DNA from: an uncultured virus (IMG/VR IMGVR_UViG_3300042864_000170)
Lineage: Duplodnaviria; Heunggongvirae; Uroviricota; Caudoviricetes
Length of the DNA stretch: 64,000 nucleotides
Strand: one strand, 5' to 3'
Virus record (IMG/VR): IMGVR_UViG_3300042864_000170
Below the pieces are notes generated by a model. It worked only from the letters and a program-made list of their open reading frames with translations, was not told the origin of the DNA and ran no database searches. Position numbers and translations under genes: made by a program. Positions 27,307-48,311 of the stretch are shown one piece after another. Position 1 is the first letter of the stretch. The number at the start of each line of letters is the position of its first letter.

Positions 27307-27381
27307 TGGTCCGGCCACCAGGAATCGAACCTGGATTGACTGCTTAGAAGGCAGATGTTCTGTCCATTGAACTATGGCCAG
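27307..27381 (-). tRNA. tRNA-Arg (UCU)
   Basis: Cloverleaf: CTGGCCA/TGGCCGG acceptor, CTTCTAA anticodon loop, GGTTCGATTCC T-arm, encoded CCA. Confidence 0.95.
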
Positions 27382-28273: not shown

Positions 28274-28644
28274 TGACTGCTCCTTGTTGCGATGTATGTA
28301 TTATAACACCGGGATAGTATTCTGTCAACCAATTCCTTGCGTCTTGTAGGGTCTTTAAGGGCTCTTCTCTATCGCTGAGAACACGATGGTTTCCACAGGC
28401 TCGGACATGATAGCCTACTTGATCATTGCCTATGATACGAAAGCTTCGATCTCTGCGGAACCATTCTTCGTCGACATTGTTTAAGTTCATGTATGTATTA
28501 TAGCAAGGTTTTACCACTCTGTCAACCTCTTTTGGTGTTGTATTTTTGCCACAAAAGGTGAGCCCCGCAACAGCTTCACAGCGTGGCAGGGCTCGGGGGT
28601 TTGCCTGGGACACTACCCCCAGGACTTCGGAGCGAACTCTCTAC

Positions 28645-28914
28645 TTACGCAAGGCCGAGAGCCATAGCCTTGTAACCTGCGGCAATGATCTTGCGGCTTG
28701 GTTGACCCATAACATACTCGGTCACTTCAACACCGTTACCGGCTTTGCGGTTGTTTGCATACACTGCGAAACCGCTTTGACGAATACGGCTGACTTCAGC
28801 TGTGACATTCTTGATACCGAAACGCTTTGCAGCCTGTGCAGGAGTCAATGCCTCGCCTGCTTTCAATGCTGTGAATAGTTTCCCGGCTTTGGTTTCTGGA
28901 TTAATCGTTTTCAT
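28645..28914 (-). CDS. Winged-helix DNA-binding protein
   Basis: LTPAQAAKRFGIKNVTAEVSRIRQSG HTH pattern. Confidence 0.65.
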   Translation of the reverse strand: MKTINPETKAGKLFTALKAGEALTPAQAAKRFGIKNVTAEVSRIRQSGFAVYANNRKAGNGVEVTEYVMGQPSRKIIAAGYKAMALGLA

Positions 28915-28979
28915 TTTGTCTTCCTTGTTAGATACTGCTGTGCAGTTATTATCTATTATAGAGAAGACTGACTGGTAAA

Positions 28980-29198
28980 TCAAGCACTAATTTTGCCAAA
29001 TTCACGATCGACATAATGTCCGATCAGTTTACGCTGGATAAGGGTAATCAAATCCCCGTGCTGATCCGAAACAATGAATCGAACAGGGCAACGACCCCAA
29101 GTACCGGACCTTTGGAACTCTGCAAACCATTTGCGGTGTTGCTTGTTCTCCGGATCGAATGCCGTCCAAGGACGACCAATATAATCTAATCTACTCAT
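28980..29198 (-). CDS. Early hypothetical protein
   Basis: Start MSRLD; WGRCPVRF. Confidence 0.6.
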   Translation of the reverse strand: MSRLDYIGRPWTAFDPENKQHRKWFAEFQRSGTWGRCPVRFIVSDQHGDLITLIQRKLIGHYVDREFGKISA

Positions 29199-29282
29199 AG
29201 TGTTCTCTCTGAATACCCCGTTATACATGTTATCGAAGAGGACTTATTGACATTGCCTCTACGCACACTGCAGGGGTTATTC

Positions 29283-29702
29283 TTAGTAAGGGGCGTCTTC
29301 CATGTCAGCCAGCTGGGCAATCACTTGGGCTTTAGTAGGAGTGGGTTTGGCTTCTGCCTTCTTAGCAGCCACCTTGGCTTCGATAGCCTTCATAGTAGGC
29401 TTGGCCTTTGCAGCTTTGGCAACCTTAGCCTCTTTAGCAGGCACTTCGCTACGCTTGTCGATCTCAGCAGCCAGTGCAGCCAACACATCAGCATTGGTCT
29501 TGCCGTTGGTAGTGGCAAAGTCGATCTCCATGAGATAAGCAACAGCGTCCTCTTTGGTCATAGCGTGTTTCAGCTCGATGATATCAATATCGGTATGACC
29601 GTTCTTGATCAGCACCTTGGTACGCAGTGCGTCATTGGCAAAACGAACTTTGAATTGGCCATCTTGTTTAGAAACGCCAGCATGGGTAAAAGATTTAGAC
29701 AT
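29283..29702 (-). CDS. Early protein with Ala/Lys-rich (histone-like) tail
   Basis: KVRFAND core; AKVAKAAKAKP tail. Confidence 0.65.
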   Translation of the reverse strand: MSKSFTHAGVSKQDGQFKVRFANDALRTKVLIKNGHTDIDIIELKHAMTKEDAVAYLMEIDFATTNGKTNADVLAALAAEIDKRSEVPAKEAKVAKAAKAKPTMKAIEAKVAAKKAEAKPTPTKAQVIAQLADMEDAPY

Positions 29703-29784
29703 AAAATTTCCTTTGTGTTTGTCTGTGTGTACGAACAGCACCGCGCTGTCCATGTATTAATTATAACCTCTTTTGGAGGAACTG

Positions 29785-29964
29785 TCAACCAAAATATGGC
29801 GAATAGACTTCCTCCTCTTGTGGCGTATCAGCAACACTGTTGCCTTCAATCCAACCGTAGACCATCTCCACGGGGCAATCCAATGTCAGTGCAATCATTC
29901 TGGCACTCATGCCATCGATGTACAGTTGCTCAATGTCGTATGCCAGTTCAGCGATCTTGCTCAT
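29785..29964 (-). CDS. 59-aa HTH-like protein (not in ORF track)
   Basis: MSKIAELAYDIEQLYIDGMSARMIALTLDCPVEMVYGWI...; ATGA-coupled. Confidence 0.6.
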   Translation of the reverse strand: MSKIAELAYDIEQLYIDGMSARMIALTLDCPVEMVYGWIEGNSVADTPQEEEVYSPYFG

Positions 29965-30374
29965 TCCATTTCCTCCTCTTGCTTCTCTTGTTCAAATGCC
30001 AGTTCTAACGGAATCCAATTCTCTTGTGTGCCGTAGTGACGAACATACCACTGAGCCTTGCCTTTCCAGTTCATGCTGAGGATGTAGTCGTACTCCTCGC
30101 CGCTGACATTTTTGTAATAGTCCTCAATGTCTTTGTATTTCTCAATCGACAACTCTTCACCGCGTTGTGTGTAGGCACCCTGTTTAGTTTCCTCAACAGA
30201 GTCGCACAGGCTTGAGAAACCGCCCAAGTCAATCAAGTCACGCAGTTTGAACGGATCGCTGTAGTGCTTGAGCAAGAGCTGGCCGTTGTGTGCCAGGTAG
30301 CCGTCCCAGTGACAGTAGACTTGCTGTACTGTGCCATCTGCAAACTCAAGTGCGATAGTGCTTCGTGTACCCAT
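29961..30374 (-). CDS. Early hypothetical protein (MGTRS..YCHWDGY)
   Basis: Own promoter, GGAG SD. Confidence 0.75.
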   Translation of the reverse strand: MGTRSTIALEFADGTVQQVYCHWDGYLAHNGQLLLKHYSDPFKLRDLIDLGGFSSLCDSVEETKQGAYTQRGEELSIEKYKDIEDYYKNVSGEEYDYILSMNWKGKAQWYVRHYGTQENWIPLELAFEQEKQEEEME

Positions 30375-30428
30375 TGTGTGCTCCAGTGTGTTTGTGTAAG
30401 TGTTAATTATAGCAAGGTTTTACCAAAC

Positions 30429-30485
30429 TGTCAACCCCTGCGAAGTACCCAGGCGTGTTGCAGGGTCTAATGGCAGGGGTTGACA
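30429..30485. repeat. 57-bp palindromic direct repeat, copy 2
   Basis: Matches 25341-25397. Confidence 0.9.
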
Positions 30486-30487
30486 TT

Positions 30488-30730
30488 TCAGCAATCGGGA
30501 TCAAAGTCTGCCCACTCTTGCGCTTCGTCGGGCTGTCCGTCAGCTTCCTCTTGCTCCAGGCGCTCTGCACAGTCCAGGAAGTTTTGGCACAGCTCGCGCA
30601 TATACTCATAAGCTGCTTTCTCAGTGCGGCTCAAGTCCAGCTCGCTCATAGAGTCCGCATTGTCCATTGCTTCCACGCAGTGACGCAGATCATTCATTGT
30701 GTTCTCAAACATGCAGTAAGACATATTCAT
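30488..30730 (-). CDS. Acidic early protein (MSYCMFENT..DL)
   Basis: Own promoter, AAGGAG SD. Confidence 0.7.
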   Translation of the reverse strand: MNMSYCMFENTMNDLRHCVEAMDNADSMSELDLSRTEKAAYEYMRELCQNFLDCAERLEQEEADGQPDEAQEWADFDPDC

Positions 30731-30802
30731 ATCAGCTCCTTTGTTGTGTATGTGTGTATTATAACACTGTTTGGCTACCCTGTCAACCAAAGACCCTACA
30801 GC

Positions 30803-31066
30803 TTACTCGGGCTTTACGCCCATAGCTTCAACAGCTTTCACGCCCTCTGCTGTAAGATAAAGTACACGATTGCGGGTAGCTGTAACAACAAACACAGCGC
30901 CCTCTTGCCCATCGTTCCAGCTGTCGTAGCGCACAGCAGGGTTTTTAAGCAGAGCAGTTATAGCCATCTTACGAGCACGTTCGCCCTCGTTGTAAGTGCC
31001 ATTGCATCCGCACATGCAGCCGGGCTTGCCAGTGTAAGAGCGGGTAGTTTGATTGACTGTAAGCAT
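30803..31066 (-). CDS. Early protein with CMCGC motif
   Basis: Own promoter, AAGGAG SD. Confidence 0.65.
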   Translation of the reverse strand: MLTVNQTTRSYTGKPGCMCGCNGTYNEGERARKMAITALLKNPAVRYDSWNDGQEGAVFVVTATRNRVLYLTAEGVKAVEAMGVKPE

Positions 31067-31116
31067 GTCTACTCCTTGTTGCGATGTATGTATTATAACA
31101 AGATTTTGCCAACTTG

Positions 31117-31341
31117 TCAAGCCAGCGTAGCAGAAACCTTATCCGCTGTAGGGTCATACTTGAGGAACAGTTTGCCCGCACCGTCATCAGTGTCTGTCAC
31201 AAGGTAGCAGAACTCGTGCCCGTTGGTGATGCCCAGGAAGCGGGCTGTCTTGAGTTTGGGTCGGCCTTTGACGGGCAGTGCCTGCTCTAGCATAACTGCT
31301 GGCATGTTGGTGAGGAGTTTGAGTTTGTCCGCTGTAATCAT
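31117..31341 (-). CDS. Early hypothetical protein
   Basis: ATGA-coupled; stop lies inside the next -35 box. Confidence 0.6.
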   Translation of the reverse strand: MITADKLKLLTNMPAVMLEQALPVKGRPKLKTARFLGITNGHEFCYLVTDTDDGAGKLFLKYDPTADKVSATLA

Positions 31342-31493
31342 TCCGCCTCCAACTCGCAGTCCTCTAACACAGCATCTGCGGTCTCAATAAAGCCCAACAG
31401 CTCATTGCCTGCACAGTTCTTGCCCTGTGCAAACAGGAAGTCCGCAAACTGTTCCATCTTTCCCAACAGCTCTTCAACATCTGTACGCTTCAT
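31338..31493 (-). CDS. 51-aa acidic early protein (not in ORF track)
   Basis: MKRTDVEELLGKMEQFADFLFAQG...; promoter and AGGAG SD. Confidence 0.65.
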   Translation of the reverse strand: MKRTDVEELLGKMEQFADFLFAQGKNCAGNELLGFIETADAVLEDCELEAE

Positions 31494-31575
31494 GTCTGCT
31501 CCTGTTTAGTGTATGTGTGTATTATAACGCAAAAGGGCACTGCTGTCAACAATGCCCTTCCACTTTACTGTACTA

Positions 31576-31962
31576 TTAAATGCCCTCGCACTCCGCAATC
31601 ACAGCGTTAACATGCTGGGGGTCCAAACGCATTAAGCCCGCAATAAACTTATCTCCTACATCGCACGACACGTAATTGTCGCCCTGCATACCCTGCTCGC
31701 TGTACTCCACGTCGTTTGCTTCTGCTTGCGTAAAGCCCAACGTAACCAAGTACTCACGCAGTTCTGCTTTAAACTGCTTGTCTGTGTAAATTAGTCCCAT
31801 TGTGTTAACGTCCCAGCTGTCTGCTGTAAAGTACACACACAGCTCGCCGAAGTCTCTCTCGTCGTTAATGAACTGCAAGTCTAGTTTCGTAACGTCTACA
31901 GCTTTAGCTGTGCGGCTCCAGTAGCCGAGTCCGTTTGTGTGCAGTGTAGTGTATGTTTGCAT
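31576..31962 (-). CDS. Early hypothetical protein (LIYTD..F; YSEQGMQG)
   Basis: Own promoter, AAGGA SD. Confidence 0.7.
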   Translation of the reverse strand: MQTYTTLHTNGLGYWSRTAKAVDVTKLDLQFINDERDFGELCVYFTADSWDVNTMGLIYTDKQFKAELREYLVTLGFTQAEANDVEYSEQGMQGDNYVSCDVGDKFIAGLMRLDPQHVNAVIAECEGI

Positions 31963-32045
31963 TTTAATTTCCTTTTCGTTTAACATGTGTGTATTATAAC
32001 GCAAAAAGGTACACAGGGCAACCAAAGACCCTATGTGCTGTAGGG

Positions 32046-32222
32046 TTATAAAGTAAACACTGCTACAGTGTCTCCTGCTTGCTTAATGCTTTGTGTTGCA
32101 TGTGCGAGCATAGTTTTATATTTGTACATGCTTGCTTTATTTTTTTGTGCTACTGCTAGCGGCACAAATTTTCCTGCAATTAGATAAGTGTTATTGCGTT
32201 GCAGTGTATACATTTTTAACAT
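32046..32222 (-). CDS. Small basic early protein
   Basis: Own promoter, AGGA SD. Confidence 0.55.
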   Translation of the reverse strand: MLKMYTLQRNNTYLIAGKFVPLAVAQKNKASMYKYKTMLAHATQSIKQAGDTVAVFTL

Positions 32223-32305
32223 TTTGGTTCCTGTTTGTTTTAACATGTGTGTATTATAACACTGTTTTGTAAAACGAGCAACCAAAGCCCCTGGGGGCTG
32301 TAGGG

Positions 32306-32854
32306 TTATTCTTGATCCTCTTGGTTCTCTTCTTCCCAGTCAGCCATACTCTCGCTGATGCAGAAGTAGTCGTCTAACTCCTCGCCGATCATGTCACGCA
32401 CCGTGTCAGCAGTTGCGCCACCGTACTCACAGCAGTCGTCACTACCGTTGTCCCACTTGCCCACAAACTGCATGCCAGGCTCGTAGTAGAAGGCCACTAG
32501 ATCAAAGCCCAAGTCCATCAACTGCTCATATGCACGGATGGGTGGTGCCCAGGCACTGTCGAAGCCAGCTGTGACAGTGTTAGCATCCTCGATCTCTACA
32601 TTGCTAGACTCTACATCCCACTTGGTGCCCCAGTTGGCCACATTGAAGTCATACCAGGAACTGTATCCGTACTTCTCTCGGTTAGCTTTTTCAGCATCGT
32701 TGGTGCCCATCTGAGCCACAGTGTCCAGCAGTTCGGCAGGGCAAGGAATGAACTCCTGCAGGAACTTGCCCTCTTGCAGAGCCTTGGCGGCCCGCTGGAT
32801 CATTTGGGGGTCTGCGTGACGCAGTGTAATACCGTTTGAACACCAATTAGGCAT
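32306..32854 (-). CDS. DUF1281/YubB-like ferredoxin-fold protein
   Basis: MPNWCSN, NWGTKWD, FDSAWAPP, YYEPG. Confidence 0.7.
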   Translation of the reverse strand: MPNWCSNGITLRHADPQMIQRAAKALQEGKFLQEFIPCPAELLDTVAQMGTNDAEKANREKYGYSSWYDFNVANWGTKWDVESSNVEIEDANTVTAGFDSAWAPPIRAYEQLMDLGFDLVAFYYEPGMQFVGKWDNGSDDCCEYGGATADTVRDMIGEELDDYFCISESMADWEEENQEDQE

Positions 32855-33059
32855 CGTAGCTCTCCTCGCCAAGTTCAGTAATCTCTTCTTCCACCACACT
32901 GATATCAACAATGCGGAACCGTTGTGTCATATCGCTAACACCACAGAACGCATCTGTGAAGCTTTGGTTCTCTGCCAGAAACTCCAGCACACTTTGACGA
33001 TCCGTGCCCTCGGGCACTTCAATCTCCTGACGGAGAACAGTTGTAACCATTGCTTTCAT
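32847..33059 (-). CDS. Early hypothetical protein
   Basis: TAATG-coupled start MKAMV. Confidence 0.6.
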   Translation of the reverse strand: MKAMVTTVLRQEIEVPEGTDRQSVLEFLAENQSFTDAFCGVSDMTQRFRIVDISVVEEEITELGEESYDA

Positions 33060-33328
33060 TAGATGATCTCCTCTTCCCACTCGTAAAAAGAAACAGCCGG
33101 GTCCAACTTCTTCAACTGCTTTGCCGCAGTCATCAGTTCCTTGTAGCGACGATTGACTTCTGTGCGGCTCAGTTCGCCATCACAGGTCAAGTTCTCCGGA
33201 CTCAATGCGGCATCGATCATGTCTGCGATACGCTGGCGACCCTTGGCACTCTGGATCTCGTATTGCTCGCCTTTGAAGAAACTGTTCCAGTGATTCTTCT
33301 GCTCGATAAACTTCTCTAGTGCTTTCAT
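33059..33328 (-). CDS. Early hypothetical protein (LSPENLTCDGE)
   Basis: Own promoter, AAGGAG SD. Confidence 0.7.
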   Translation of the reverse strand: MKALEKFIEQKNHWNSFFKGEQYEIQSAKGRQRIADMIDAALSPENLTCDGELSRTEVNRRYKELMTAAKQLKKLDPAVSFYEWEEEII

Positions 33329-33384
33329 CTTTGCTCCTTAGTGTGTAAGTGTGTATTATAGCAAGAAAACAGGGGATTGTCAAC

Positions 33385-33565
33385 TACCCGTTAGTCCGTC
33401 TCTAACGTTCGGTGTGCCAAACATTACGCCCTAGTTCCCCGTCAGCAACTCGTGTAAACTTTCGTTTACAACTGCCTTCATGCCCCACAGCAACCTGTCC
33501 CCGTCGGAACTCTTCGCTTGCTGTGGGCCCTAACGGACTAGGTAACCCTGTTTATTTCTTACTAT
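33385..33565 (-). ncRNA. Promoter-driven multi-branch structured RNA (about 180 nt)
   Basis: Perfect promoter 33571-33599; closing stem UAGUCCGU/ACGGACUA and three internal hairpins. Confidence 0.7.
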
Positions 33566-33595
33566 GCCTTATTATAGCAAGGTTTTACCAACTTG

Positions 33596-33826
33596 TCAAC
33601 CAAATGCTTTGTATAACCCTACAATGCCTATGGCTAATGATACAACGTTGACCACAGCCTGTGGCTTATTTGCCACACGGATAGCCCATGCCAAGAACGC
33701 TACAGTGCCCACAGCGAACGCGATAATATTGTAAGGATAGACACTGGGACCTATTGCGTTGAGTACGTGCCCGGCAATGATCGCCACGGCACCCACCCAC
33801 TGTAGTACTTCATTCTTATTAAACAT
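33596..33826 (-). CDS. Small three-TM membrane protein
   Basis: Hydrophobic; stop lies in the next -35 box. Confidence 0.65.
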   Translation of the reverse strand: MFNKNEVLQWVGAVAIIAGHVLNAIGPSVYPYNIIAFAVGTVAFLAWAIRVANKPQAVVNVVSLAIGIVGLYKAFG

Positions 33827-34199
33827 CAACACCTTCACGATCAACCATGTCGCTCAACTCAGCGAATTTTTGTTTGTACTTGTAGACTTCGCGTTTGGCT
33901 TCGTGCAGTGCTTCGCCGATGCAGTCCTCTGCGGTGCCGTCTGTCAGTACTTCGCGAGCATCCTTGTACAGACATCCGCCCAGGTAGTGCGAACCCATCT
34001 CAAGGCTGTCAACCATTACACGCACTCGCAACATGAACCAATCCAAGTTGCCATTGTCGATGTCTTTACACATCTTGCTAACTTCTTCTTCACTATCAAA
34101 GTCAAAGCAATCACGTGGGTTCAGGTCTTCGTAGCTCTTGTCTACGATCACAGTAAAGCCATCGCGCTCGTAAGTTGCCAGTTCATCGTAGTATCGCAT
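33819..34199 (-). CDS. Early hypothetical protein
   Basis: In cassette operon. Confidence 0.65.
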   Translation of the reverse strand: MRYYDELATYERDGFTVIVDKSYEDLNPRDCFDFDSEEEVSKMCKDIDNGNLDWFMLRVRVMVDSLEMGSHYLGGCLYKDAREVLTDGTAEDCIGEALHEAKREVYKYKQKFAELSDMVDREGVDV

Positions 34200-34208
34200 A
34201 GTTGCCTT

Positions 34209-34439
34209 TCAATAGTGGTGACGTGAGCCGGGATCGCAGAAGTCTGCATTGTCGGGAGTCCACTCCTCGTCTTCTTCAACAATGGTGTCCTCATCCTCTT
34301 CGTCCAGGATGTCGTTAGCACGGCACATGTCTTTAACATCGTCCTCGCTCATGTAGGCCAATGCCATCTCTGCCACAGCTTCTGCTGAGATCAAACCCTC
34401 ATCCATCATCTCTAACAGCTTCGTAGTGTACTTGCGCAT
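34209..34439 (-). CDS. Acidic early protein
   Basis: Own promoter; YMSEDDV.DM. Confidence 0.65.
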   Translation of the reverse strand: MRKYTTKLLEMMDEGLISAEAVAEMALAYMSEDDVKDMCRANDILDEEDEDTIVEEDEEWTPDNADFCDPGSRHHY

Positions 34440-34501
34440 ATCAGCTCCTTGTTGCGATGTATGTATTATAACAGGTTTTACCAACCCTGTCAACCGAAGG
34501 G

Positions 34502-34858
34502 TTATTCAACGCCCACAGACACATCGACCTCAATATCTGTAACGTCGCCAGCGAGATCGTACTTAATACCCGTCACAGCCGCGCCGTAGTTGACCTGCTT
34601 GAGACGCTCTCTGATCATGCTTTCGAGGTCGCCCATCATATCGCCAATGAAGTCAGTGGCGCTGTCTTTAACGCCACGCAGGGTTTCGTTGATCCCATTG
34701 CGCGACATGTCCTCTTGCCCGTCCATGATCATCTCAATGAAAGCTTCTGTCTGGCTGATCAGTACTTGCTCTACAACGGCATTGACCAGTTCGCGCTTGC
34801 CAAACAACAACTCAACGGCCTTAAAGGTCTGCTCACCTGCTTTATACACTACAGTCAT
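34502..34858 (-). CDS. Acidic early protein
   Basis: Own promoter, AGGAG SD. Confidence 0.65.
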   Translation of the reverse strand: MTVVYKAGEQTFKAVELLFGKRELVNAVVEQVLISQTEAFIEMIMDGQEDMSRNGINETLRGVKDSATDFIGDMMGDLESMIRERLKQVNYGAAVTGIKYDLAGDVTDIEVDVSVGVE

Positions 34859-34909
34859 CGTCTTCTCCTGTTAAACAAGTATGTATTATAACACGGTTTT
34901 ACCAAAGTG

Positions 34910-35182
34910 TCAAGCGGTTTCTAACATATTTGCAGGCACCCTCCACAGGCCCTGGTTAGTACGAACTGTTACGTATTTGATCGCGATCTTGTCTACGACA
35001 CCCTGCATAGTGATGCCTGTTTTAGTGCTAGTGAACTTCACAGCACTGCCCAGCGTGACAGAGCGTTTGGTCTTCTCTGCAAGGCGTGCTCGGGCAAATT
35101 TCACAGCGTCGATGATGCTGGTCAGTTGATCGTTAGTGAAGTTGCCTGCAAGAATCTCATTGTTGATAGATTGAACGGACAT
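34910..35182 (-). CDS. Early protein with SH3-like C-terminus
   Basis: Own promoter; G.V.KIAIKYVTV..WRVPANML. Confidence 0.65.
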   Translation of the reverse strand: MSVQSINNEILAGNFTNDQLTSIIDAVKFARARLAEKTKRSVTLGSAVKFTSTKTGITMQGVVDKIAIKYVTVRTNQGLWRVPANMLETA

Positions 35183-35209
35183 ATCAGCTCCTTTGTGTGT
35201 AAGTGTATA

Positions 35210-35371
35210 TTATACGGTAAAACCGATAACCTTGTCAACCATTGGGTTTTTGCGAGCCACAGCCCGCCATGCCCGATTGGCCTTGGTCCATTGTTCGTGA
35301 TTGGTGGTAAAGCCCGGGAATCGATCCTTGGCCCAGATCACAAAGTTCAAACGTTCAATTTCGTTCTTCAT
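35210..35371 (-). CDS. Small early protein
   Basis: Coupled to the upstream stop; runs through the next promoter. Confidence 0.45.
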   Translation of the reverse strand: MKNEIERLNFVIWAKDRFPGFTTNHEQWTKANRAWRAVARKNPMVDKVIGFTV

Positions 35372-35649
35372 CACATGCTCCAGTAGAGTTCGCTTGACGG
35401 ATCGCAACTGCGGGGAGTGTCGTGTGCGATCTCAACCATTGCCCCAGTCATCAAGTTCTTAACAGTCTTCATGCTGGGAGTCCAGTCGAAGCGGAAGCCG
35501 TCTTCTGGCCTGTACAAATGGAACAAGTCCGCTACAGTGCGGCGCATGGCATTGTCATCCGCTACGGGCCAAACTGTAGTAGAGAACAAGCGCTCTCCGG
35601 TCTTTGTACGACGATCTGCTTTGTAGATGTATAGTGTATAACTCATCAT
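35371..35649 (-). CDS. Early hypothetical protein (DTPRSCDPSSELYWSM)
   Basis: Own promoter, AAGGAG SD. Confidence 0.7.
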   Translation of the reverse strand: MMSYTLYIYKADRRTKTGERLFSTTVWPVADDNAMRRTVADLFHLYRPEDGFRFDWTPSMKTVKNLMTGAMVEIAHDTPRSCDPSSELYWSM

Positions 35650-35720
35650 TGCTCCTTAGTGTGTAAGTGTCAATTATAACACGGTTTTACCAACTTGTCA
35701 AGTGTTACTTGAAGTGACAC

Positions 35721-36059
35721 TTAGTCCCCACGAACGTCTGTATTTAAAACAGGCTTAACCATTCTGCGGATCTCTACTTCACGCTTGTGGGCTTCTGCCT
35801 TGCCTCGTATAACTTCATGCACGTATACTTCAATCTCGCTCTTGTCGCTCAGTGTGCGCAACTCAGCACAGAGCAGCCAGTTCTTAGTCTCAGTCTTGGC
35901 ACGATAGAAGTGTTTAGCGGCACGACTCAAAACACTCTTGTTCACAGTGCTCTCTGTCTTAGCTGTGACGCCAATGTAGTTCTTGCCGTTGACCACAAGC
36001 TCATAGATGATATGATTGCGGTCTACACGCTTCTTACGGGTTACTGTTTGTGTCGTCAT
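35721..36059 (-). CDS. GIY-YIG-like protein
   Basis: IIYEL..NYIG, R, E, LN; ATG 5 nt from the -10 box. Confidence 0.6.
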   Translation of the reverse strand: MTTQTVTRKKRVDRNHIIYELVVNGKNYIGVTAKTESTVNKSVLSRAAKHFYRAKTETKNWLLCAELRTLSDKSEIEVYVHEVIRGKAEAHKREVEIRRMVKPVLNTDVRGD

Positions 36060-36186
36060 AGTGTATTATAGCAAGGTTTTACCAATCAGTCAACCAAAGA
36101 CCCTCCAAATGATCTGTGTTCAAAATACAACAAGACAGGCACTCCAAAAGATGCTATAATACATACTTAAACAACAAAGGAAGCAC

Positions 36187-42021: not shown

Positions 42022-44967
42022 ATGCTTCTAGATCAATACCCCAAAATCAATACAGACCTAATCAAAGAAATCCCCTGGGGAGGGGATGAGTTTTATTATG
42101 ACCAACAATTATACAACTTAGGTGAAGGCGATACTGAATTCTTAGTGATAAATCCTTATGCAAGACATTCTAGTGTCTTGAACTTTGTAAATGATGTGCC
42201 TAAAACAAGAAAATGTCTAGTTTGGACATACAAAGGTGAGTGGGTAGCCAAACTGTTTAAAGATGGGTGGCACCCATATGCTGGATATGAAACACATGAA
42301 ATAGAAGTACCAAAGAATCACATGTGGGCAAAAACGCCTATCTGGAAAAAGAATTCTGCAATAGCAAGTTCTATTACATTTGAATTTAATCCTATAGAAA
42401 GTTATGTATATAATCAAGACGATGCTGACTATACGTTAGTTTGGTACATTGATCCTAGAGTCAATCCTTTAGAAGATAAAATATGGGCATTTACTTGTGA
42501 GGTGCCTGGCGCCAACGTTAAAGGCGAGAAAGACATGGGATACGTTATGCCTGAAATGCGAGTTACATGGAATCCTGATCTTCCTAAACTACTCATCGAT
42601 GTCAACGAATGTTATCCGCCATTTTGGTTTCTGGATTACGTTACTGCACTTGAGCTGGATCCTAACTACAGTCCAAAACCAGGTACTTGGTTGATTAAGT
42701 TTGAACCTAAACGTAAAAAAACTTCTAAATGGGAATGGTTAGGCACAGTTAGTCCTGAGTTTAAAATTGAACAAAATCCTAGCCTACCAGAAATGCGTTT
42801 TGATTTAGATTACGACATTCCTTGGCACGATCTAGCCTATGAACATATATGGTATCTAGACAAAGAAATAAACGGGGAGAAGATTTGGGCTTTGAAAATT
42901 ACTCCCAGTGCAGAGATTGTGGGTGTTAAAGAAATAGGAACAGTTACTCCTCTGATTGCCGAAACACTGGATGTAATCTTTATTAGTTACCATGAATCTA
43001 ATGCAGAAGAGAATTGGCAGCGTGTTTTAGAAAAAGCACCACATGCCAAACGTGTGGATGGTGTTACTGGTATCTTTGAGGCACATAAGGCAGCGGCTAA
43101 GTTATCCAAGACTGACATGTTCTATGTAGTCGACGGTGATGCTTACTTAGTCGATGACTGGCAGTTCGACTACCAACCAGAGATATTTGATAGAGACTGT
43201 ACATACGTCTGGCACAGTAAGAATCCTGTTAATGATTTAGAATATGGTTACGGTGGCGTTAAATTATTCCCTAAGCGGGCATTTGGCAAAATCAAAGTTT
43301 GGAAAACATTAGACCTACTGACGACTATTGTTCCTAAATTAAAAGTCTTCGATAAAGTCAGTAACATTACAACATTTAACACAGACGAGTTTGCCACATG
43401 GCGAAGTGCATTTAGGGAAACAATTAAGTTATGCAATACCATTGCACAAGATCCCGATAATGCTGAAGCTATTGATAGATTGGCAGCATGGGAGACTCTG
43501 GGAGTAGATAGGCCGTTCGGTAATTATGCATTATCTGCTGTACATTCTGCTAAAGAGTTCTTTGATGCAAATAAAAATACACCAACATTACAACAAATAA
43601 ATAACAGGTCCTGGTTACTCACAATGTTCAACTCAAAAAAAATAACTGCCTTCGATTACAAACCTATTAAAATTGTCAAAAAAGAAGATGTAGTTGCAGT
43701 TGCAACAAATACAACCACAATATGTGCAGTGCCCTGGATGCATCTTGCATTTGAACCTAGTGGAAAAGTAATTCCGTGTTGCCTAACCTCTGTACATAAT
43801 TATTTTGCTGGTGATCTAACACATCAGAGCATTGAAGAAATTTGGAACAGCGGCAATATGAAATCTTTAAGAAAAGATATGATAGGGGGCAAAGAGCCCG
43901 AAATATGCCGTAAATGTTTTGATAGAGAACGGGTCACTGGTGAAAGTGGTCGTTTCTATCACAATAGAGACTTTCCAGAGGTAGTAAAAAAAATTCCAGA
44001 AATTACACTAGCAGACGGAACATGCACTACTATGGAGTTGAAGTATTGGGATTTCCGTTTTAGTAATCTTTGCAATTTTAAATGTCGTAGTTGCGGACCA
44101 CGTTACAGTTCAGCATGGGTGCCGGATGCTAAAAAATTAGGCCTCACTGATCAAGAAAAAATATGGAGCATCGAATCAGTAGATGATAAGAATAACTTTG
44201 ATTTTCTAAAAGATCAAATTAACCATGTGGAAAGAATTTACTTTGCTGGAGGCGAACCTCTACTCATGCCTGAACACTGGCAAATTTTAGAAATGTTGGT
44301 AGAAAAACAACGATTTGATGTTAAACTATCATATAACACAAATGCATCAGTGTTATCTTATAATAAGAAAAATGTTATTGACTACTGGCGGCGATGGAAC
44401 TTTGGCAAATTAGAAATATGGCCCAGTATCGATGAAGTTGGAGAACGTGCAGAACTCATTCGAGCCGGCACTGTATGGTCTAAGGTTGAGTCAAATCTAA
44501 AAGAATTGATGACATTAGATAATGCTATCATACGCCCGGGTATTACTGTAGGTGCTTGGAATGTTGGCAGATTTCCTGAAATTATTAAACATTTGATTTC
44601 AATAGGAGTTATACGTCAACATCCTAAAACCAAATTTATTAATTACAATAATTTCTTCATCAATTTGTTAGAACATCCTTCACATTATCATGTTAGTATT
44701 CTACCCGATGATTATCGTGCAGAGACTGTAATTAAATTAGAAACTTTTGTCAAAGAGCACAACGAAACATATAATACAAGCATAGATCATCTTTTAACAC
44801 ATATCATACATGAATTAAAAAAACCATTTGATTTAACATCAGCAAAGAAATTTGTAACAGTGACGGAACAATTGGATAAGTTAAGAGGTGAGAATACTTA
44901 TGAAATCATACCAGAAATGAAATTAGTGTTAGAAGCAACAAGGAATAATGAATATGGACAAGATTGA
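42022..44967 (+). CDS. Fusion: three internal repeats + GT-A-like domain + twitch/SPASM radical SAM
   Basis: Repeats W.LD...W...G.V.P; FISYHE..VVDGD; CAVPW..PCC..CRKC; CNFKCRSC; FAGGEP. Confidence 0.8.
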   Translation: MLLDQYPKINTDLIKEIPWGGDEFYYDQQLYNLGEGDTEFLVINPYARHSSVLNFVNDVPKTRKCLVWTYKGEWVAKLFKDGWHPYAGYETHEIEVPKNHMWAKTPIWKKNSAIASSITFEFNPIESYVYNQDDADYTLVWYIDPRVNPLEDKIWAFTCEVPGANVKGEKDMGYVMPEMRVTWNPDLPKLLIDVNECYPPFWFLDYVTALELDPNYSPKPGTWLIKFEPKRKKTSKWEWLGTVSPEFKIEQNPSLPEMRFDLDYDIPWHDLAYEHIWYLDKEINGEKIWALKITPSAEIVGVKEIGTVTPLIAETLDVIFISYHESNAEENWQRVLEKAPHAKRVDGVTGIFEAHKAAAKLSKTDMFYVVDGDAYLVDDWQFDYQPEIFDRDCTYVWHSKNPVNDLEYGYGGVKLFPKRAFGKIKVWKTLDLLTTIVPKLKVFDKVSNITTFNTDEFATWRSAFRETIKLCNTIAQDPDNAEAIDRLAAWETLGVDRPFGNYALSAVHSAKEFFDANKNTPTLQQINNRSWLLTMFNSKKITAFDYKPIKIVKKEDVVAVATNTTTICAVPWMHLAFEPSGKVIPCCLTSVHNYFAGDLTHQSIEEIWNSGNMKSLRKDMIGGKEPEICRKCFDRERVTGESGRFYHNRDFPEVVKKIPEITLADGTCTTMELKYWDFRFSNLCNFKCRSCGPRYSSAWVPDAKKLGLTDQEKIWSIESVDDKNNFDFLKDQINHVERIYFAGGEPLLMPEHWQILEMLVEKQRFDVKLSYNTNASVLSYNKKNVIDYWRRWNFGKLEIWPSIDEVGERAELIRAGTVWSKVESNLKELMTLDNAIIRPGITVGAWNVGRFPEIIKHLISIGVIRQHPKTKFINYNNFFINLLEHPSHYHVSILPDDYRAETVIKLETFVKEHNETYNTSIDHLLTHIIHELKKPFDLTSAKKFVTVTEQLDKLRGENTYEIIPEMKLVLEATRNNEYGQD

Positions 44968-46297
44968 TCAATTAAGAACAGAAATTATTGAAAGTGAGAC
45001 ATTTTGTTTTTATCCTTTTACACAACTAAGTTCTAATCCCGCTGGCCACCTTAAACCGTGTTGTAATTATGTAGGAACAATGACACACCCGAACGGAGAT
45101 ATCATTAGCATTTTATCCGGGGATAATTTTAGTGATGCGTGGAACAGCGAACACCTTGTTGATTTAAGAAAAAAATTACATACAGGAGATACTCCTGATG
45201 CTTGCAGGCGTTGCATTCGAGACGGCGACGTTAGTATGCGTACACGGTCAATTGAAGATTATAAAAATAATCGAAAAACATTAGAGATAGTTGCCAACAG
45301 CATAAACAACAGTTACGAAGTGTTACACCAACCAACATATTTAGAATTAAAGCCTAGTAATTTGTGCAACCTTAAATGTGTCATGTGCAACAGTTACGAC
45401 AGTAGTCAGATTGCTAAAGAGTTAGGTGAACTTAATAATAAATTTGGTGGCATCAAAGTATTAGATGGAAGATTTATTGAAATTTCCAGTGTGTTTGGAA
45501 TCACTGAACATAATAAAACATGGAAAGATGTCGAACATCCCGATTGGTCTGATAATGAAGAAATATGGGAAAGTTTTACAAAATTAGCACCTGGACTAGA
45601 AGTATTAAGTTTTGCCGGTGGTGAACCTACAATTATGCCATTTGTGTTAAAGGCACTGCAATATGTTGTAGACAATGATCATGCTAAAAATATTACTGTA
45701 TTTTTGTCCAGTAACTTTACAAACCTAAATAAAAACTTTTTAGAGTTAATGCCTAAGTTTAAAAAGTTTGAACTCATTGCCAGTATTGACGGGTTTGATA
45801 AAGTCAACGATTATGCTAGATATCCTAGTAAATGGCGCCAGGTATCAAAGAATTACATTGAAGCAAAGAGTTATATGAAACACAGCAATGTTAAGATATT
45901 GAATAATATCACCGTTAGCTCATTGAACATTGTTAACTTAGATAGCCTATTATATTTTATAGAAGAACAGGCCAAAGTGCATCCATACTTTAAAGAGTGG
46001 CCATATAACATCAACTTAATTATGTTTCCGATGGAACAACAAATATCAATGTTACCACAGTCTCTGAAAGATTTAGCTACACAGAGATTAACAGCATATC
46101 TAGAAAATAGTCAAGTCATTAAAGATTTTCCCGGACTAGATGGAAAGATACACTTGTTATTAAATGAATTAACCAAGCCTGACAATCCGAAACTGTTTAA
46201 GGTATTCAAACATAGAATTAAAATACTTGATGACCATAGAGGAATTTCAATCGGCGATTATATTCCAGACTTGAAAGATGCTTTTAAACATGACTAA
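44948..46297 (+). CDS. Twitch/SPASM-domain radical SAM enzyme
   Basis: CFYPF..PCC..CRRC; CNLKCVMC; FAGGEP. Confidence 0.85.
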   Translation: MNMDKIDQLRTEIIESETFCFYPFTQLSSNPAGHLKPCCNYVGTMTHPNGDIISILSGDNFSDAWNSEHLVDLRKKLHTGDTPDACRRCIRDGDVSMRTRSIEDYKNNRKTLEIVANSINNSYEVLHQPTYLELKPSNLCNLKCVMCNSYDSSQIAKELGELNNKFGGIKVLDGRFIEISSVFGITEHNKTWKDVEHPDWSDNEEIWESFTKLAPGLEVLSFAGGEPTIMPFVLKALQYVVDNDHAKNITVFLSSNFTNLNKNFLELMPKFKKFELIASIDGFDKVNDYARYPSKWRQVSKNYIEAKSYMKHSNVKILNNITVSSLNIVNLDSLLYFIEEQAKVHPYFKEWPYNINLIMFPMEQQISMLPQSLKDLATQRLTAYLENSQVIKDFPGLDGKIHLLLNELTKPDNPKLFKVFKHRIKILDDHRGISIGDYIPDLKDAFKHD

Positions 46298-47525
46298 GAC
46301 ATATTGCCCGTTAGCATGGAATCATTTTTCTACACACACTGATGGCAATATGCGTCTTTGTTGTAATTCTACTAATGCAGGAAGATTAAAGAAAGATGGC
46401 AAGTTTGTAAAAATAAATGAGATAACAAGTTTGATTGAATTTTACAATATTGATCAATTAAAAAATATAAGAAAGAAAATGATAGACGGCGAGCGGGTGG
46501 CCGAGTGCCAGCATTGTTATAATGTTGAGGACAATGGGGGTGAAAGTGTTAGAAATTGGTTTGTAAAGAGATGGCCGATTGAAGATATTATAACAAACAC
46601 TGAAATGCATACGGGCAAGTTAGAATCTGTTGATGTAAATTACTTAGATTTAAGTTGGTCGAATAAGTGTAATCTACAATGCAAGATGTGTACCCCGGGA
46701 GCTAGCGATCAACTAATAAAAGAATTTAAATTCCTCAACATTAAACCATGGGGTGAAAAAGAAAGTGATTATAAAGCTCAATGGAACTATGATCAAATTA
46801 AACATATCCTTGACCTAGTAAAGACTGACGGATTAGTGCAGATATTAGTAACCGGTGGTGAACCATTAATCAACAACGATTTTTATACATTTTGTAAAGA
46901 ACTAATTAGTTCAGGTTTATCTAAACAGGTTGACTTATCTATACATACAAATTTAACTGTGACACCGTCAAAATGGTTTGACATCTGGAGCCATTTTAAG
47001 ACTATGACTATTAAAGTAAGTATTGATGCTGTTGCTGATATGTACGAATATATTAGATATCCTGGAAAATGGAACATTGTTAAAGATAATATTGATAGCA
47101 TAGTTCAATATTCGAATGAAAACGAAAATATTGGTATCGAGTTTCACACTGTGTTTTCTATTTTTAATACACATAAATTTACAGAATTGTTAGATTATAT
47201 TGTGAGGTTGGAAGGAAAGAATATTTTAAACTTTCCTCACATAAATTATATCTACGATCCAAGCTATGCATCCCCGAGTAATTTACCAACAGCTTATAAA
47301 AATACAGTGTATCAAGAAATTGCAACCTGGTTTGAAAACAATAGAGAACTACTTGAAAAAGATGCAGTTAAAGAAAAGGCTAACATATTGAGTGCAATGA
47401 TTACATTTTTAATCGGAACACCTGAGTCAGATATAAATTTTAAAAACAGTGTTTCGATAATAAAAAAGATGGATGCTTATCGAAATCACAATACAGAAAA
47501 ATATTTGCCGTGGTGGAAAAATTAA
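46290..47525 (+). CDS. Twitch/SPASM-domain radical SAM enzyme
   Basis: CPLAW..LCC..CQHC; CNLQCKMC; TGGEP. Confidence 0.85.
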   Translation: MTKTYCPLAWNHFSTHTDGNMRLCCNSTNAGRLKKDGKFVKINEITSLIEFYNIDQLKNIRKKMIDGERVAECQHCYNVEDNGGESVRNWFVKRWPIEDIITNTEMHTGKLESVDVNYLDLSWSNKCNLQCKMCTPGASDQLIKEFKFLNIKPWGEKESDYKAQWNYDQIKHILDLVKTDGLVQILVTGGEPLINNDFYTFCKELISSGLSKQVDLSIHTNLTVTPSKWFDIWSHFKTMTIKVSIDAVADMYEYIRYPGKWNIVKDNIDSIVQYSNENENIGIEFHTVFSIFNTHKFTELLDYIVRLEGKNILNFPHINYIYDPSYASPSNLPTAYKNTVYQEIATWFENNRELLEKDAVKEKANILSAMITFLIGTPESDINFKNSVSIIKKMDAYRNHNTEKYLPWWKN

Positions 47526-47528
47526 CTG

Positions 47529-48311
47529 TTAGGTATATTTTATAAAATTAGTTCTATCCCAGTCCGGACCACGAAACTCCATTCTGTCATCAGTCCATCC
47601 TATGGGTTGATACCCGTAACAATCAAAATCCTGAGGATAAGTTGTTTTAGTTATAGTTACAGGATATTTTCGGTCTTTCATATCTTTAGATAATACATCT
47701 ATGCAAAACGTTTTATAAAAATCAAATGCTGGCGGTCTGCATAGATATGCTTTATTACATTGACCAACTAAAAACATTTTTAAATTTAATGGATGTTTTT
47801 CTAAATATGAAAAAGTGCTAGCTGTAACCTGAGGAAACATGGTTGAAAAGAAATCATCAACAATAACAACTCCATAGTCAGACAAAAAATGATCAGCTAA
47901 AATTAAATCTTTATAGCATTGTGCATAACTATGATCGCCATCAATATGAAACCATGAATAATCGCGAGAATGTTCTTGAAAAATAGAATAATGAAAATGC
48001 ACCAAACTGTTAGAATAATCATTTATTAATCTTAGATTTAATCCCTCAATCTTTGATAGTAAATTTGAATAAGTTGTGTCCATCCATTCACCGGGATCTA
48101 CAATCACCTGCTGTGTGTTGTTGGCCTGTGCATATAGCCCACTTAGCATTGCAGACTTTCCATGTAATACACCTATTTCTAAAAAATTACGCACAACTTT
48201 ATTTTCGGTTTGATAACCTAATAACGAGTCCCATACTAATGCACTGGGAAATTGTAAGGACCCTGGTATATCTTCAGATATAACATTATATTGATTTAAA
48301 AAACTTTTCAT
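47529..48311 (-). CDS. Class I SAM methyltransferase (Methyltransf_24-like)
   Basis: LEIGVLHGKS, HIDGDHSY, IVDD. Confidence 0.8.
   Translation of the reverse strand: MKSFLNQYNVISEDIPGSLQFPSALVWDSLLGYQTENKVVRNFLEIGVLHGKSAMLSGLYAQANNTQQVIVDPGEWMDTTYSNLLSKIEGLNLRLINDYSNSLVHFHYSIFQEHSRDYSWFHIDGDHSYAQCYKDLILADHFLSDYGVVIVDDFFSTMFPQVTASTFSYLEKHPLNLKMFLVGQCNKAYLCRPPAFDFYKTFCIDVLSKDMKDRKYPVTITKTTYPQDFDCYGYQPIGWTDDRMEFRGPDWDRTNFIKYT

What the first reader, a model, noticed from the sequence alone, without database searches (positions are those of the whole stretch)
33385..33599. Promoter-driven four-way-junction RNA occupying a whole cassette
Seen on the minus strand after a perfect promoter, with no credible ORF: closing stem UAGUCCGU/ACGGACUA, hairpin CCCACAGCAA/UUGCUGUGGG, hairpin UGUAAAC-GAAA-GUUUACA, and hairpin UAAUGUUUGG-CACA-CCGAACGUUA (two G-U pairs). 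The motif GAGUU..GACGGGGA occurs twice. I do not recognise it as a known family. Inference: an undescribed phage ncRNA, possibly a two-site protein decoy.
Basis: partly seen in the sequence, partly recalled or inferred. Interest (0 to 1): 0.75.

Follow-up and report, generated by a model that had tools for sequence, protein, structure and literature searches.

The report
New structured RNA of jumbo phages
The flagged stretch is a real gene for a folded non-coding RNA of about 208 bases, one member of a large, apparently undescribed RNA family in uncultured lake-water giant phages, where it often sits beside tRNA genes; what it does is unknown.

Summary
The RNA runs from about 33565 to about 33358 on the minus strand. 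It starts at the predicted start site of a perfect sigma-70 promoter. It closes with a terminal helix (P0) whose 3' strand lies inside the next promoter.

Comparative analysis gives this layout: P0; a three-way junction (P1/P2/P3); then a 3' hairpin domain. The family has at least 108 model-confirmed IMG/VR loci. On 69 distinct sequences, 48 of 62 pairs show changes on both sides.

The second "GACGGGGA" is simply the 3' strand of P1.

- No Rfam family matches.
- No GenBank phage holds it.
- No bacterial copy was found.
- It is single-copy in 4 of 5 near-complete genomes of about 350 kb.

In many relatives it lies in tRNA operons, with a tRNA starting 0-9 bases after P0. It is often preceded by an rrn-like boxA leader.

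My best reading is a stable, trans-acting structured RNA released by processing, with an unknown partner. Function is not shown. Expression evidence is weak: metatranscriptome contigs only.

The parts
33571..33599 (-). Promoter of the RNA: -35 TTGACA 33599-33594, 17-base spacer, -10 TATAAT 33576-33571
   Evidence: 12 of 12 matches, TG before the -10. The first base of helix P0 (33565) lies 6 bases after the -10, which is at the predicted start site (inference from spacing).
33358..33565 (-). The whole RNA element, about 208 nt, from the first to the last base of terminal helix P0
   Evidence: fold of 208 nt: -83.6 kcal/mol, z = -6.1, 0 of 200 shuffles as good. (model R2, 100.4 bits over 33361-33558; the window's subfamily was in the seed). 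Ends are inferred, not measured.
33546..33565 (-). P0, 5' strand (AUAGUAAGAAA + 3-base bulge + ACAGGG)
   Evidence: Family-wide, P0 has 10 of 12 modelled pairs changed on both sides. Duplex energy is -20 kcal/mol or stronger in 41 of 57 distinct relatives.
33358..33374 (-). P0, 3' strand (CCCUGU UUUCUUGCUAU); it lies in the spacer and first bases of the -10 of the next promoter
   Evidence: U5->C in L061/L060/L119 turns a U:G pair into C:G.
33530..33542 (-). P1, 5' strand (CCUAGU CCGUUAG)
   Evidence: A->G here is matched by U->C in L119; family pair 22-285 is CG 36, GC 23, AU 4, UA 3.
33430..33445 (-).
33484..33527 (-).
   Evidence: 3 pairs changed on both sides within the subfamily. helices 6 and 9 (7 of 8 and 5 of 5 pairs changed on both sides).
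33477..33482 (-). Junction P2/P3, CAUGAA; A, G, A, A are invariant across the 49 sequences of alignment A3
   Evidence: invariant columns.
33447..33476 (-). P3 hairpin with GAAA loop (GUAAAC-GAAA-GUUUAC plus basal pairs)
   Evidence: It is invariant within the subfamily. Family helix 10 has 5 of 5 pairs changed on both sides. The loop is GNRA in 32 of 40 short-P3 relatives.
33408..33421 (-).
   Evidence: helix 6: 86.7% paired, changes on one side only. Weakly supported.
33389..33407 (-). P5 hairpin CGUUAG-AGACGGA-CUAACG
   Evidence: 4 of 6 pairs changed on both sides in 6 sequences. Two metatranscriptome contigs carry both sides of one such change, at 33391 and 33405. The loop AGACG[GU] occurs in 46 of 64 relatives.
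33355..33383 (-). Next promoter (12 of 12), overlapping the RNA's 3' end; it drives the 89-aa ORF 33328..33059

Best explanation
This is a single-copy gene for a highly structured non-coding RNA of about 208 nt, carried by an uncultured lake-water jumbo phage (genome about 350-380 kb).

Shown: the fold is conserved by compensatory changes across a large phage-only family. It consists of a long terminal helix (P0) that pairs the very first and last bases; a three-way junction (P1/P2/P3) with near-invariant junction bases and variable arms; a GNRA-capped P3; and a 3' hairpin domain.

Inferred: in the window the RNA starts at the +1 of its own consensus sigma-70 promoter. In many relatives it is instead cut out of a tRNA-operon precursor. 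There its 3' end would be made by RNase P cleavage of the tRNA that begins 0-9 bases after P0, and the 20-26 bp P0 would act as a processing and protection stem, like the stems that flank rRNAs.

Inferred: the mature, exonuclease-protected particle acts in trans as a structured scaffold that binds a protein or other macromolecule. That would put it in the same kind as the other phage RNAs found at tRNA islands (ROOL, GOLLD, T4 species I/II RNA). The partner and the effect are unknown.
For: Structure
- Model-based alignment A5: 92 sequences, 69 distinct, 62 pairs. 89.9% of cells are paired, against 68.1% in shuffles and 39-48% with partners slid. 48 pairs change on both sides. 0 of 500 shuffles reach any of the five measures.
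- G:U 426 against A:C 62 of 3640 paired cells, so the pairing is at the RNA level and on this strand.
- No further covarying pairs turned up outside the model.

Family
- 108 of 118 IMG/VR loci holding the 19-base core pattern match model R2 at E <= 0.001.
- 80 bacterial or archaeal loci with the same pattern score 16.3 bits or less.
- One copy in 4 of 5 genomes that are 98-100% complete.

Ends and context
- P0 starts 6 bases after the -10 in the window. The same geometry is seen in L033-type relatives.
- 18 of 57 distinct members have such a promoter; 23 of 57 instead have a boxA-like leader; none has both.
- Of the 24 of 57 distinct members that have a same-strand tRNA downstream in the DNA held, 19 have it starting -4 to +12 bases from the P0 end.
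- The RNA heads a 23-tRNA array in G005 and lies inside a 25-tRNA array in G003.

Expression hint
- In three metatranscriptome runs from three studies, the main pieces laid on the 1.2-kb stretch were contigs of 156-205 nt on the RNA itself: the only piece in X21 and X22, the longest of four in X24.

Not coding
- Arm lengths vary by non-multiples of 3, and a 1-base indel is found in close relatives.
Against: - No transcript ends, strand or abundance were measured. The RNA-library data are assembled contigs, which cannot prove transcription. One run (X19) covered relatives' flanking genes but not the RNA.
- In the window there is no terminator-like site after the RNA, and its 3' end sits inside the next promoter. 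It could therefore simply be the 5' leader of a longer transcript.
- A5 is fitted to the model and the members are related, so the shuffle controls overstate significance.
- No phage RNase III, Ro60 or RtcB gene was found in 5 genomes, so processing would have to be done by the host.
- One complete relative (G004) lacks the RNA, so it is dispensable for at least some members of the clade.
- No binding partner is identified. The trans-acting scaffold role rests on analogy only.
Confidence: 0.5

Rival explanations
1. It is a cis-acting operon leader. The structure sits first in early or tRNA transcripts and works on the same transcript: it could protect the 5' end, organise processing of the downstream tRNAs, or take part in processive antitermination together with the boxA-like leader.
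For: It is usually the first element after the promoter. 18 of 57 members have the start site at P0, and 23 of 57 have a promoter, a hairpin and a boxA-like motif 61-71 bases upstream of the GGUUACC core, with one at 118. A tRNA or a gene follows at once. There is no terminator after it in the window.
Against: In the window, and in 6 sigma-70-type relatives seen in the alignment (L034, L038, L110, L138, L151, L167), a second full-strength promoter stands between the RNA and the next gene, and even overlaps the RNA. That makes control of that gene by the RNA pointless. RNase P cleavage 0-9 bases downstream would cut it off from the tRNAs. The fold is far more elaborate than known leader stabilisers. 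In a few relatives a tRNA abuts it on the 5' side as well (L198, L144, L182).
Confidence: 0.2
2. It is a ligand-binding RNA: a free-standing aptamer that senses or soaks up a small molecule, for example a nucleotide second messenger of host defence. The three-way junction would be the pocket.
For: The pattern of near-invariant junction bases with freely varying, covarying arms and a GNRA-capped helix is typical of aptamers. It is expressed from an early-type consensus promoter.
Against: There is no expression platform. No known riboswitch family matches. The long P0 and the tRNA-operon setting are not riboswitch-like. No ligand is suggested by neighbouring genes.
Confidence: 0.08
3. It is a ribozyme, either self-cleaving or acting on other RNAs such as tRNA precursors.
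For: Its size, the two multi-helix junctions and the invariant unpaired bases would suit one. It is placed among RNAs that need processing.
Against: No ribozyme family, RNase P RNA included, matches at E <= 10 in the window or E <= 1 in 20 relatives. No pseudoknot or further covarying contact was found.
Confidence: 0.05
4. One reading: a four-way-junction RNA that presents two copies of GAGUU..GACGGGGA as a two-site protein decoy.
For: Both copies exist in the window. GACG-type loops do recur on two arms in the family: P2 holds GACGG in 24 of 64, and the P5 loop is AGACG[GU] in 46 of 64. A protein recognising two GACG loops is therefore still possible.
Against: The second copy is a helix strand that covaries with its partner. 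The closing stem is unsupported. GAGUU is not conserved.
Confidence: 0.05
5. It is not an RNA at all, but a DNA-level element (inverted-repeat mobile element, origin, recombination site) or a small protein gene on either strand.
For: It is flanked by 17-26 bp inverted repeats (P0), and its place in the genome varies between relatives. Stop-free frames of 42-73 codons occur on the opposite strand.
Against: G:U outnumbers A:C by 426 to 62. The inverted repeats covary rather than being conserved. It is single-copy. Arm lengths break any frame.
Confidence: 0.02

Closest known systems
ROOL and GOLLD RNAs (ornate phage/prophage RNAs)
   Same: They are phage-encoded, elaborately folded non-coding RNAs of unknown function, 'often near tRNA islands' (PMC12286853, passages read). 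No protein partner is known for them. The RNA here is likewise phage-borne, and in many relatives it sits inside or at the head of tRNA arrays.
   Different: This RNA is much smaller, about 200-330 nt; the passages read say many GOLLD members exceed 800 nt, and the ROOL size of about 580 nt is recalled. It does not match the Rfam library, which should hold both families. It has a long terminal helix. No multimer contacts were seen or tested.
Phage T4 species I and II RNAs
   Same: [quoted passage not shown] That they are cut out of the same precursor, and that their function has remained unknown, is recalled, not in the passage.
   Different: A blastn search of GenBank phages with three family members found nothing.
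rRNA operon architecture (boxB-boxA leader, RNase III processing stem around 16S/23S, spacer tRNAs)
   Same: In 23 of 57 relatives the order is promoter, small hairpin, a boxA-like motif (GUUCUUUAAAAA), a long helix enclosing the structured RNA, then tRNAs. The motif with its flanks resembles the E. coli rrn boxA and spacer printed in PMC2724277.
   Different: The enclosed RNA is about 200 nt and matches no rRNA family. Nus-factor binding and RNase III cleavage are untested. The window copy has no boxA-like site near it.
Stable RNAs closed by a terminal stem (Y RNA, 4.5S/SRP RNA, 6S RNA)
   Same: The 5' and 3' ends are paired in a long helix, there is an internal functional domain, the gene is single-copy, and the action is in trans as a protein-binding particle (established knowledge, recalled).
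   Different: No Rfam match to any of them. No Ro60/TROVE gene in 5 phage genomes. The branching pattern differs.
Unnamed candidates in the IMG/VR structured-RNA catalogue (Fremin et al. 2023, PMC10690425)
   Same: That screen clustered IMG/VR intergenic regions and reported 8,495 covarying candidates absent from Rfam (abstract and passages read). This family could be among them.
   Different: This could not be checked. The alignment archives were unreadable, and six contig identifiers of family members were not found in the readable tables. The passages read (abstract, parts of the Introduction, Results, Discussion and Methods) do not describe such an RNA.

Membership tests
Any Rfam 15 family | Match to the family's covariance model | tested here: not met
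   Window at gathering score: only a tRNA at 27310-27381. 33200-33800 at E <= 10: only CRISPR-DR24 at 14.5 bits (gathering score 35), E = 7.3. 20 relatives at E <= 1: only tRNAs, plus two sub-threshold plastid UTR hits lying on tRNAs.
ROOL / GOLLD | Sequence-structure match to the family model | tested here: not met
   The Rfam library was searched as a whole. No hit to any family apart from tRNA and those sub-threshold hits was returned.
ROOL / GOLLD | Encoded in phages or prophages near tRNA islands | tested here: met
   for relatives. In the window itself the nearest tRNA is 6 kb away.
Y RNA | Ro60 (TROVE) partner encoded nearby or in the genome | tested here: not met
   PF05731 found in 0 of 5 genomes; controls were positive. 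A host Ro60 cannot be excluded.
Riboswitch | Aptamer in a 5' UTR coupled to an expression platform that controls the gene downstream | tested here: not met
   A full consensus promoter lies between the RNA and the next ORF. In relatives a tRNA follows within 0-9 bases. No terminator-like site follows it.
Riboswitch | Binding of a specific ligand | not testable with these tools
   Needs in-line probing or ITC.
RNA anti-CRISPR (repeat mimic) | Unit resembling a CRISPR repeat of the host's system | tested here: inconclusive
   The only signal is a 14.5-bit, E = 7.3 hit to CRISPR-DR24 on the P5 hairpin, which is chance level. The host and its repeats are unknown.
Miniature inverted-repeat mobile element | Many copies per genome with conserved terminal inverted repeats | tested here: not met
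   One copy in the window and in each of 4 genomes. The terminal repeats covary, with many G:U pairs.
rrn-type antitermination leader (context, not the RNA itself) | boxA sequence downstream of the promoter | tested here: inconclusive
   A boxA-like motif occurs in 23 of 57 relatives, compared by eye with the sequence printed in PMC2724277. It is absent near the window copy. Nus binding is untested.

The most novel reading that the evidence does not exclude
This is a new class of phage 'ornate' RNA that is built and expressed like a miniature ribosomal RNA: boxA-led, enclosed by a processing stem, and co-transcribed with tRNAs. It would act on the translation or tRNA machinery of the infected cell, or self-assemble or sequester a host factor or defence signal. 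In that case these giant phages carry a dedicated catalytic or scaffolding RNA with no cellular counterpart.
Probability: 0.15. Interest if true: 0.85.

Novelty: new variant of a known kind. Interest (0 to 1): 0.62.

Why it matters
Complex, strongly covarying RNAs of more than 200 nt with no assigned function are rare, and they have repeatedly led to new biology (riboswitches, ribozymes, RNA-only cages). This one is abundant in lake-water giant phages and single-copy. It is wired into tRNA operons with an rRNA-like leader and processing stem. That adds a third, much smaller and easier-to-handle example to the unexplained link between phage tRNA islands and ornate RNAs (ROOL, GOLLD). Its small size makes chemical probing, structure determination and pull-downs straightforward. 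For annotation, it explains an 'empty' promoter-to-promoter cassette, and it shows a promoter overlapping a functional RNA helix.

Tried and rejected
- RNAalifold first proposed an outer helix AUAAACA/UGUUUG. It was superseded once P0 was recognised.
- I considered alternative pairing of the GACGG loops with the P1 5' strand (a switch). It was rejected because the P2 loop stays GACGG where P1 has CCACU.
- A pseudoknot search by pairwise covariation found nothing beyond the model.
- Known families were checked through Rfam only, and none matched: tRNA-like, tmRNA, 5S, SRP, 6S, RNase P, Y RNA, ribozymes and riboswitches (ARAGORN).
- Phage-encoded partners or processing enzymes were sought. TROVE, RNase III (PF14622) and RtcB were found in 0 of 5 genomes each.
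- Cellular homologues: 90 pattern matches in 596 Gb of genomes; of the 80 loci that could be scored, none is real. This test sees only copies with the exact 19-base core.
- Isolated phages: blastn with three members found nothing. The nearest isolates by helicase (PA5oct group, Atu_ph07, about 52-53% aa) lack it.
- Earlier findings of this scan: nothing on record.
- Prior description in print: six full-text searches found none. The Fremin catalogue could not be checked.
- Metatranscriptomes: parts of the stretch without cover, and run X19's lack of cover on the RNA, are not counted as evidence either way.

Full report
WHAT IS IN THE SEQUENCE.

On the minus strand a perfect TTGACA-17-TATAAT promoter lies at 33599..33571, and a second one at 33383..33355. 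The region from 28 to 36 kb holds 13 such 12/12 promoters on that strand, each in front of a small ORF. Between the two promoters there is no credible ORF: only 28 aa on the minus strand and 79 aa on the plus strand. A 1-base indel in 3 of 6 close relatives falls inside both.

The stretch folds far better than shuffled sequence. For 181 nt the fold is -64.5 kcal/mol, z = -4.99, with 0 of 200 shuffles as good. For the full 208 nt it is -83.6 kcal/mol, z = -6.1, again 0 of 200. Both motif copies exist, with spacers of 2 and 3 bases.

THE GENOME.

The window is nearly identical to an IMG/VR record of 107 kb that is rated 29% complete. Relatives include contigs of 345-383 kb rated 98-100% complete. 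DNA holders are lake-water and freshwater metagenomes. No GenBank phage matches by blastn. By DnaB-like helicase the nearest isolates are the Pseudomonas phage PA5oct group (53% aa) and Agrobacterium phage Atu_ph07. This is therefore an uncultured freshwater jumbo phage.

RELATIVES AND THE REVISED FOLD.

The flanking 89-aa ORF has more than 581 relatives in IMG/VR. Among the 136 loci held at that point, blastn found the RNA at 88-100% identity in 24.
- The 3' end forms a hairpin CGUUAG-AGACGGA-CUAACG in which 4 pairs change on both sides.
- An A-to-G change at the fourth base of the 5' strand CCUAGU is matched by a U-to-C change in ACUAGG.

A first model (R1) found diverged members. These revealed a near-invariant core: GGUUACCUA-NN-CC-NN-UAGG.

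Reading those sequences showed that the 22-26 bases before the core are the reverse complement of the bases after a conserved ..UUCC. This is a terminal helix, P0, whose sequence differs between lineages but stays paired. Duplex energy is -20 kcal/mol or stronger in 41 of 57 distinct members.

In the window P0 joins 33565-33555 with 33368-33358, and 33551-33546 with 33374-33369.

FAMILY-WIDE TEST.

Model R2 has 198 positions and 62 pairs, with the structure taken from a typical member's fold.
- It matched 91 of 99 plus 17 of 19 pattern loci at E <= 0.001, and the window once, at 100.4 bits.
- As a control, 80 bacterial or archaeal loci holding the same 19-base pattern scored 16.3 bits or less.
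- On the resulting alignment (92 sequences, 69 distinct), 89.9% of cells pair, against 68.1% in shuffles and 39-48% with partners slid.
- 48 of 62 pairs change on both sides, and 0 of 500 shuffles reach any measure.
- G:U cells outnumber A:C cells by 426 to 62. That places the structure in RNA, on this strand.

Two cautions apply: the alignment is fitted to the model, and the sequences are related.

No extra covarying contact such as a pseudoknot was found.

ANATOMY.

- P0 is the terminal helix.
- P1 is made of CCUAnn/nnUAGG plus CCGUU/GRYGG, with a 3-5-base bulge.
- P2 is a long hairpin. Its tip is often C-GACG-G; GACGG occurs in 24 of 64 members.
- The P2/P3 junction is CAUGAA, nearly invariant.
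- P3 is variable in length, from 32 to 104 bases for the P3 region. It is GNRA-capped in 32 of 40 short forms.
- After the 3' strand of P1 comes GUAAUGA.
- The 3' domain follows. In most members it is P4 plus P5, with the loop A-GACGK-U in 46 of 64. In others it is a single hairpin.
- The window's subfamily has a small hairpin (33421-33408) in place of P4, then P5 (33407-33389).

GENOMIC SETTING.

The RNA is single-copy in 4 of 5 near-complete genomes and absent from one. In G005 it heads a 23-tRNA array. In G003 it lies inside a 25-tRNA array. In G002 the tRNAs are 4 kb away, and in G006 there are none within 6 kb.

Across 57 distinct members, 24 have a same-strand tRNA downstream in the DNA held. 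In 19 of those the tRNA starts -4 to +12 bases from the end of P0. One of the 19 (L149) has an ill-defined P0.

There are two ways of expression, and they exclude each other:
- 18 of 57 have a sigma-70 promoter placed so that transcription starts at the first base of P0. This is the window's type.
- 23 of 57 have, 61-71 bases upstream of the GGUUACC core (one at 118), a motif GUUCUUUAAAAA preceded by a promoter and a small hairpin.
- None has both, and 16 have neither.

That motif, with its flanks, is close to the E. coli rrn boxA and spacer printed in PMC2724277 (passages read). The layout is promoter, boxB-like hairpin, boxA-like motif, a long helix enclosing a structured RNA, then tRNAs. 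This is the layout of an rRNA operon in miniature. The window itself has no such motif near the RNA.

EXPRESSION.

Six RNA-library runs hold a small share of the 1.2-kb stretch. Four were laid.
- In X21 a contig of 158 nt covers 33335-33492.
- In X22 a contig of 156 nt covers 33379-33534.
- In X24 a contig of 205 nt covers 33358-33538 and then runs on unlike the window, that is, it diverges exactly at the end of P0. X24 also has three short pieces (34-42 bases) elsewhere on the stretch.
- These three runs come from three studies. In X21 and X22 the RNA contig is the only piece laid on the stretch.
- X21 and X22 carry both sides of one compensatory P5 pair (33391 and 33405).
- X19 holds relatives' flanking genes but not the RNA.

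Contigs cannot show strand, ends or level, and DNA can contaminate RNA libraries. This is a hint only.

WHAT IT IS NOT.

- No Rfam family matches.
- It is not a riboswitch by context.
- It is not a mobile element.
- It is not coding. Stop-free frames on the opposite strand are not kept in register.
- No phage Ro60, RNase III or RtcB gene was found.
- It is not present in PA5oct or Atu_ph07.

MOST LIKELY MECHANISM.

Shown: a conserved, single-copy, elaborately folded RNA whose first and last bases pair. It is placed at a transcription start or directly upstream of a tRNA.

Inferred: it is released as a discrete stable RNA. Its 5' end would come from initiation, or from cleavage in or next to P0. 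Its 3' end would come from RNase P cutting the next tRNA, or from cleavage of P0 as with the rRNA processing stems. It would then act in trans as a scaffold for an unknown partner. I put about 0.9 on 'real structured ncRNA family' and about 0.5 on this mode of action.

COMPARISON AND NOVELTY.

The closest kind is the group of phage RNAs at tRNA islands:
- ROOL and GOLLD (PMC12286853, passages read);
- T4 species I/II RNAs (PMC2330249, passage read).

This RNA shares their setting and their unknown function, but it does not match the Rfam library, which should hold both models, and it is several times smaller. Six literature searches found no description of it. A bulk catalogue of 8,495 IMG/VR candidates (PMC10690425) may contain it unnamed, and I could not read its alignment files. 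I therefore rate it a new variant of a known kind, with interest 0.62.

Noticed in passing
L143, L145, L147, L174, L176, L178, L196, L199 and others, 40-130 bases upstream of the RNA: The tRNA-operon leaders of relatives carry a sigma-70-like promoter, a small hairpin and GUUCUUUAAAAA. With its flanks this closely resembles the E. coli rrn boxA and spacer printed in PMC2724277. That suggests Nus-dependent antitermination of phage tRNA operons. It is present in 23 of 57 distinct members.
   Followed up: partly
L034, L038, L110, L138, L151, L167 (alignment A4, columns 140-200): In sigma-70-type relatives the -35 hexamer TTGACA of the next promoter doubles as the 3' strand of RNA helix P4, pairing with GUCAA. 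Array-type members have UGCAC/GUGCA there instead. In the window, the next promoter's spacer and -10 double as the 3' strand of P0.
   Followed up: partly
window 28300-36093, minus strand: There are 13 perfect 12/12 TTGACA-N17/18-TATAAT promoters in 8 kb, each ahead of a small ORF. This is a dense early-gene cassette array driven by host-consensus promoters.
   Followed up: no
window 33596-33844 (-): An 82-aa predicted membrane protein has a weak DUF6552 match (22.3 bits, below the cut-off of 27). Its stop codon overlaps the RNA's promoter. The same gene ends just upstream of the RNA in 6 of the 9 diverged members printed.
   Followed up: partly
window 42022-50272: Four consecutive radical-SAM proteins are present: two with SPASM domains, one plain, and one with a B12-binding domain on the opposite strand. 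This looks like a peptide- or cofactor-modification cluster in a phage.
   Followed up: no
window 55841-58540 and 61780-63471 (+): Two large proteins carry collagen triple-helix repeats. One also has a weak endosialidase-like tail-spike match. They are probably fibre proteins.
   Followed up: no
window 27307-27381 (-): A single tRNA-Arg(TCT) is the only tRNA in the 64-kb window, whereas relatives G003 and G005 carry arrays of 25 and 23 tRNAs.
   Followed up: partly
G004 (352,754 bp, direct terminal repeats): This complete relative has the DUF6552-like gene but no copy of the RNA (best hit 13.3 bits). The RNA has therefore been lost, or replaced beyond recognition, in at least one lineage.
   Followed up: partly
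L018, L149, L153, L156, L161, L226 and others (P3 region of 81-104 bases): One subfamily carries a conserved insert of about 50-70 bases in P3 (..GGCGAGACACCAUCGAGCC..). It is a module of its own with no Rfam match.
   Followed up: no
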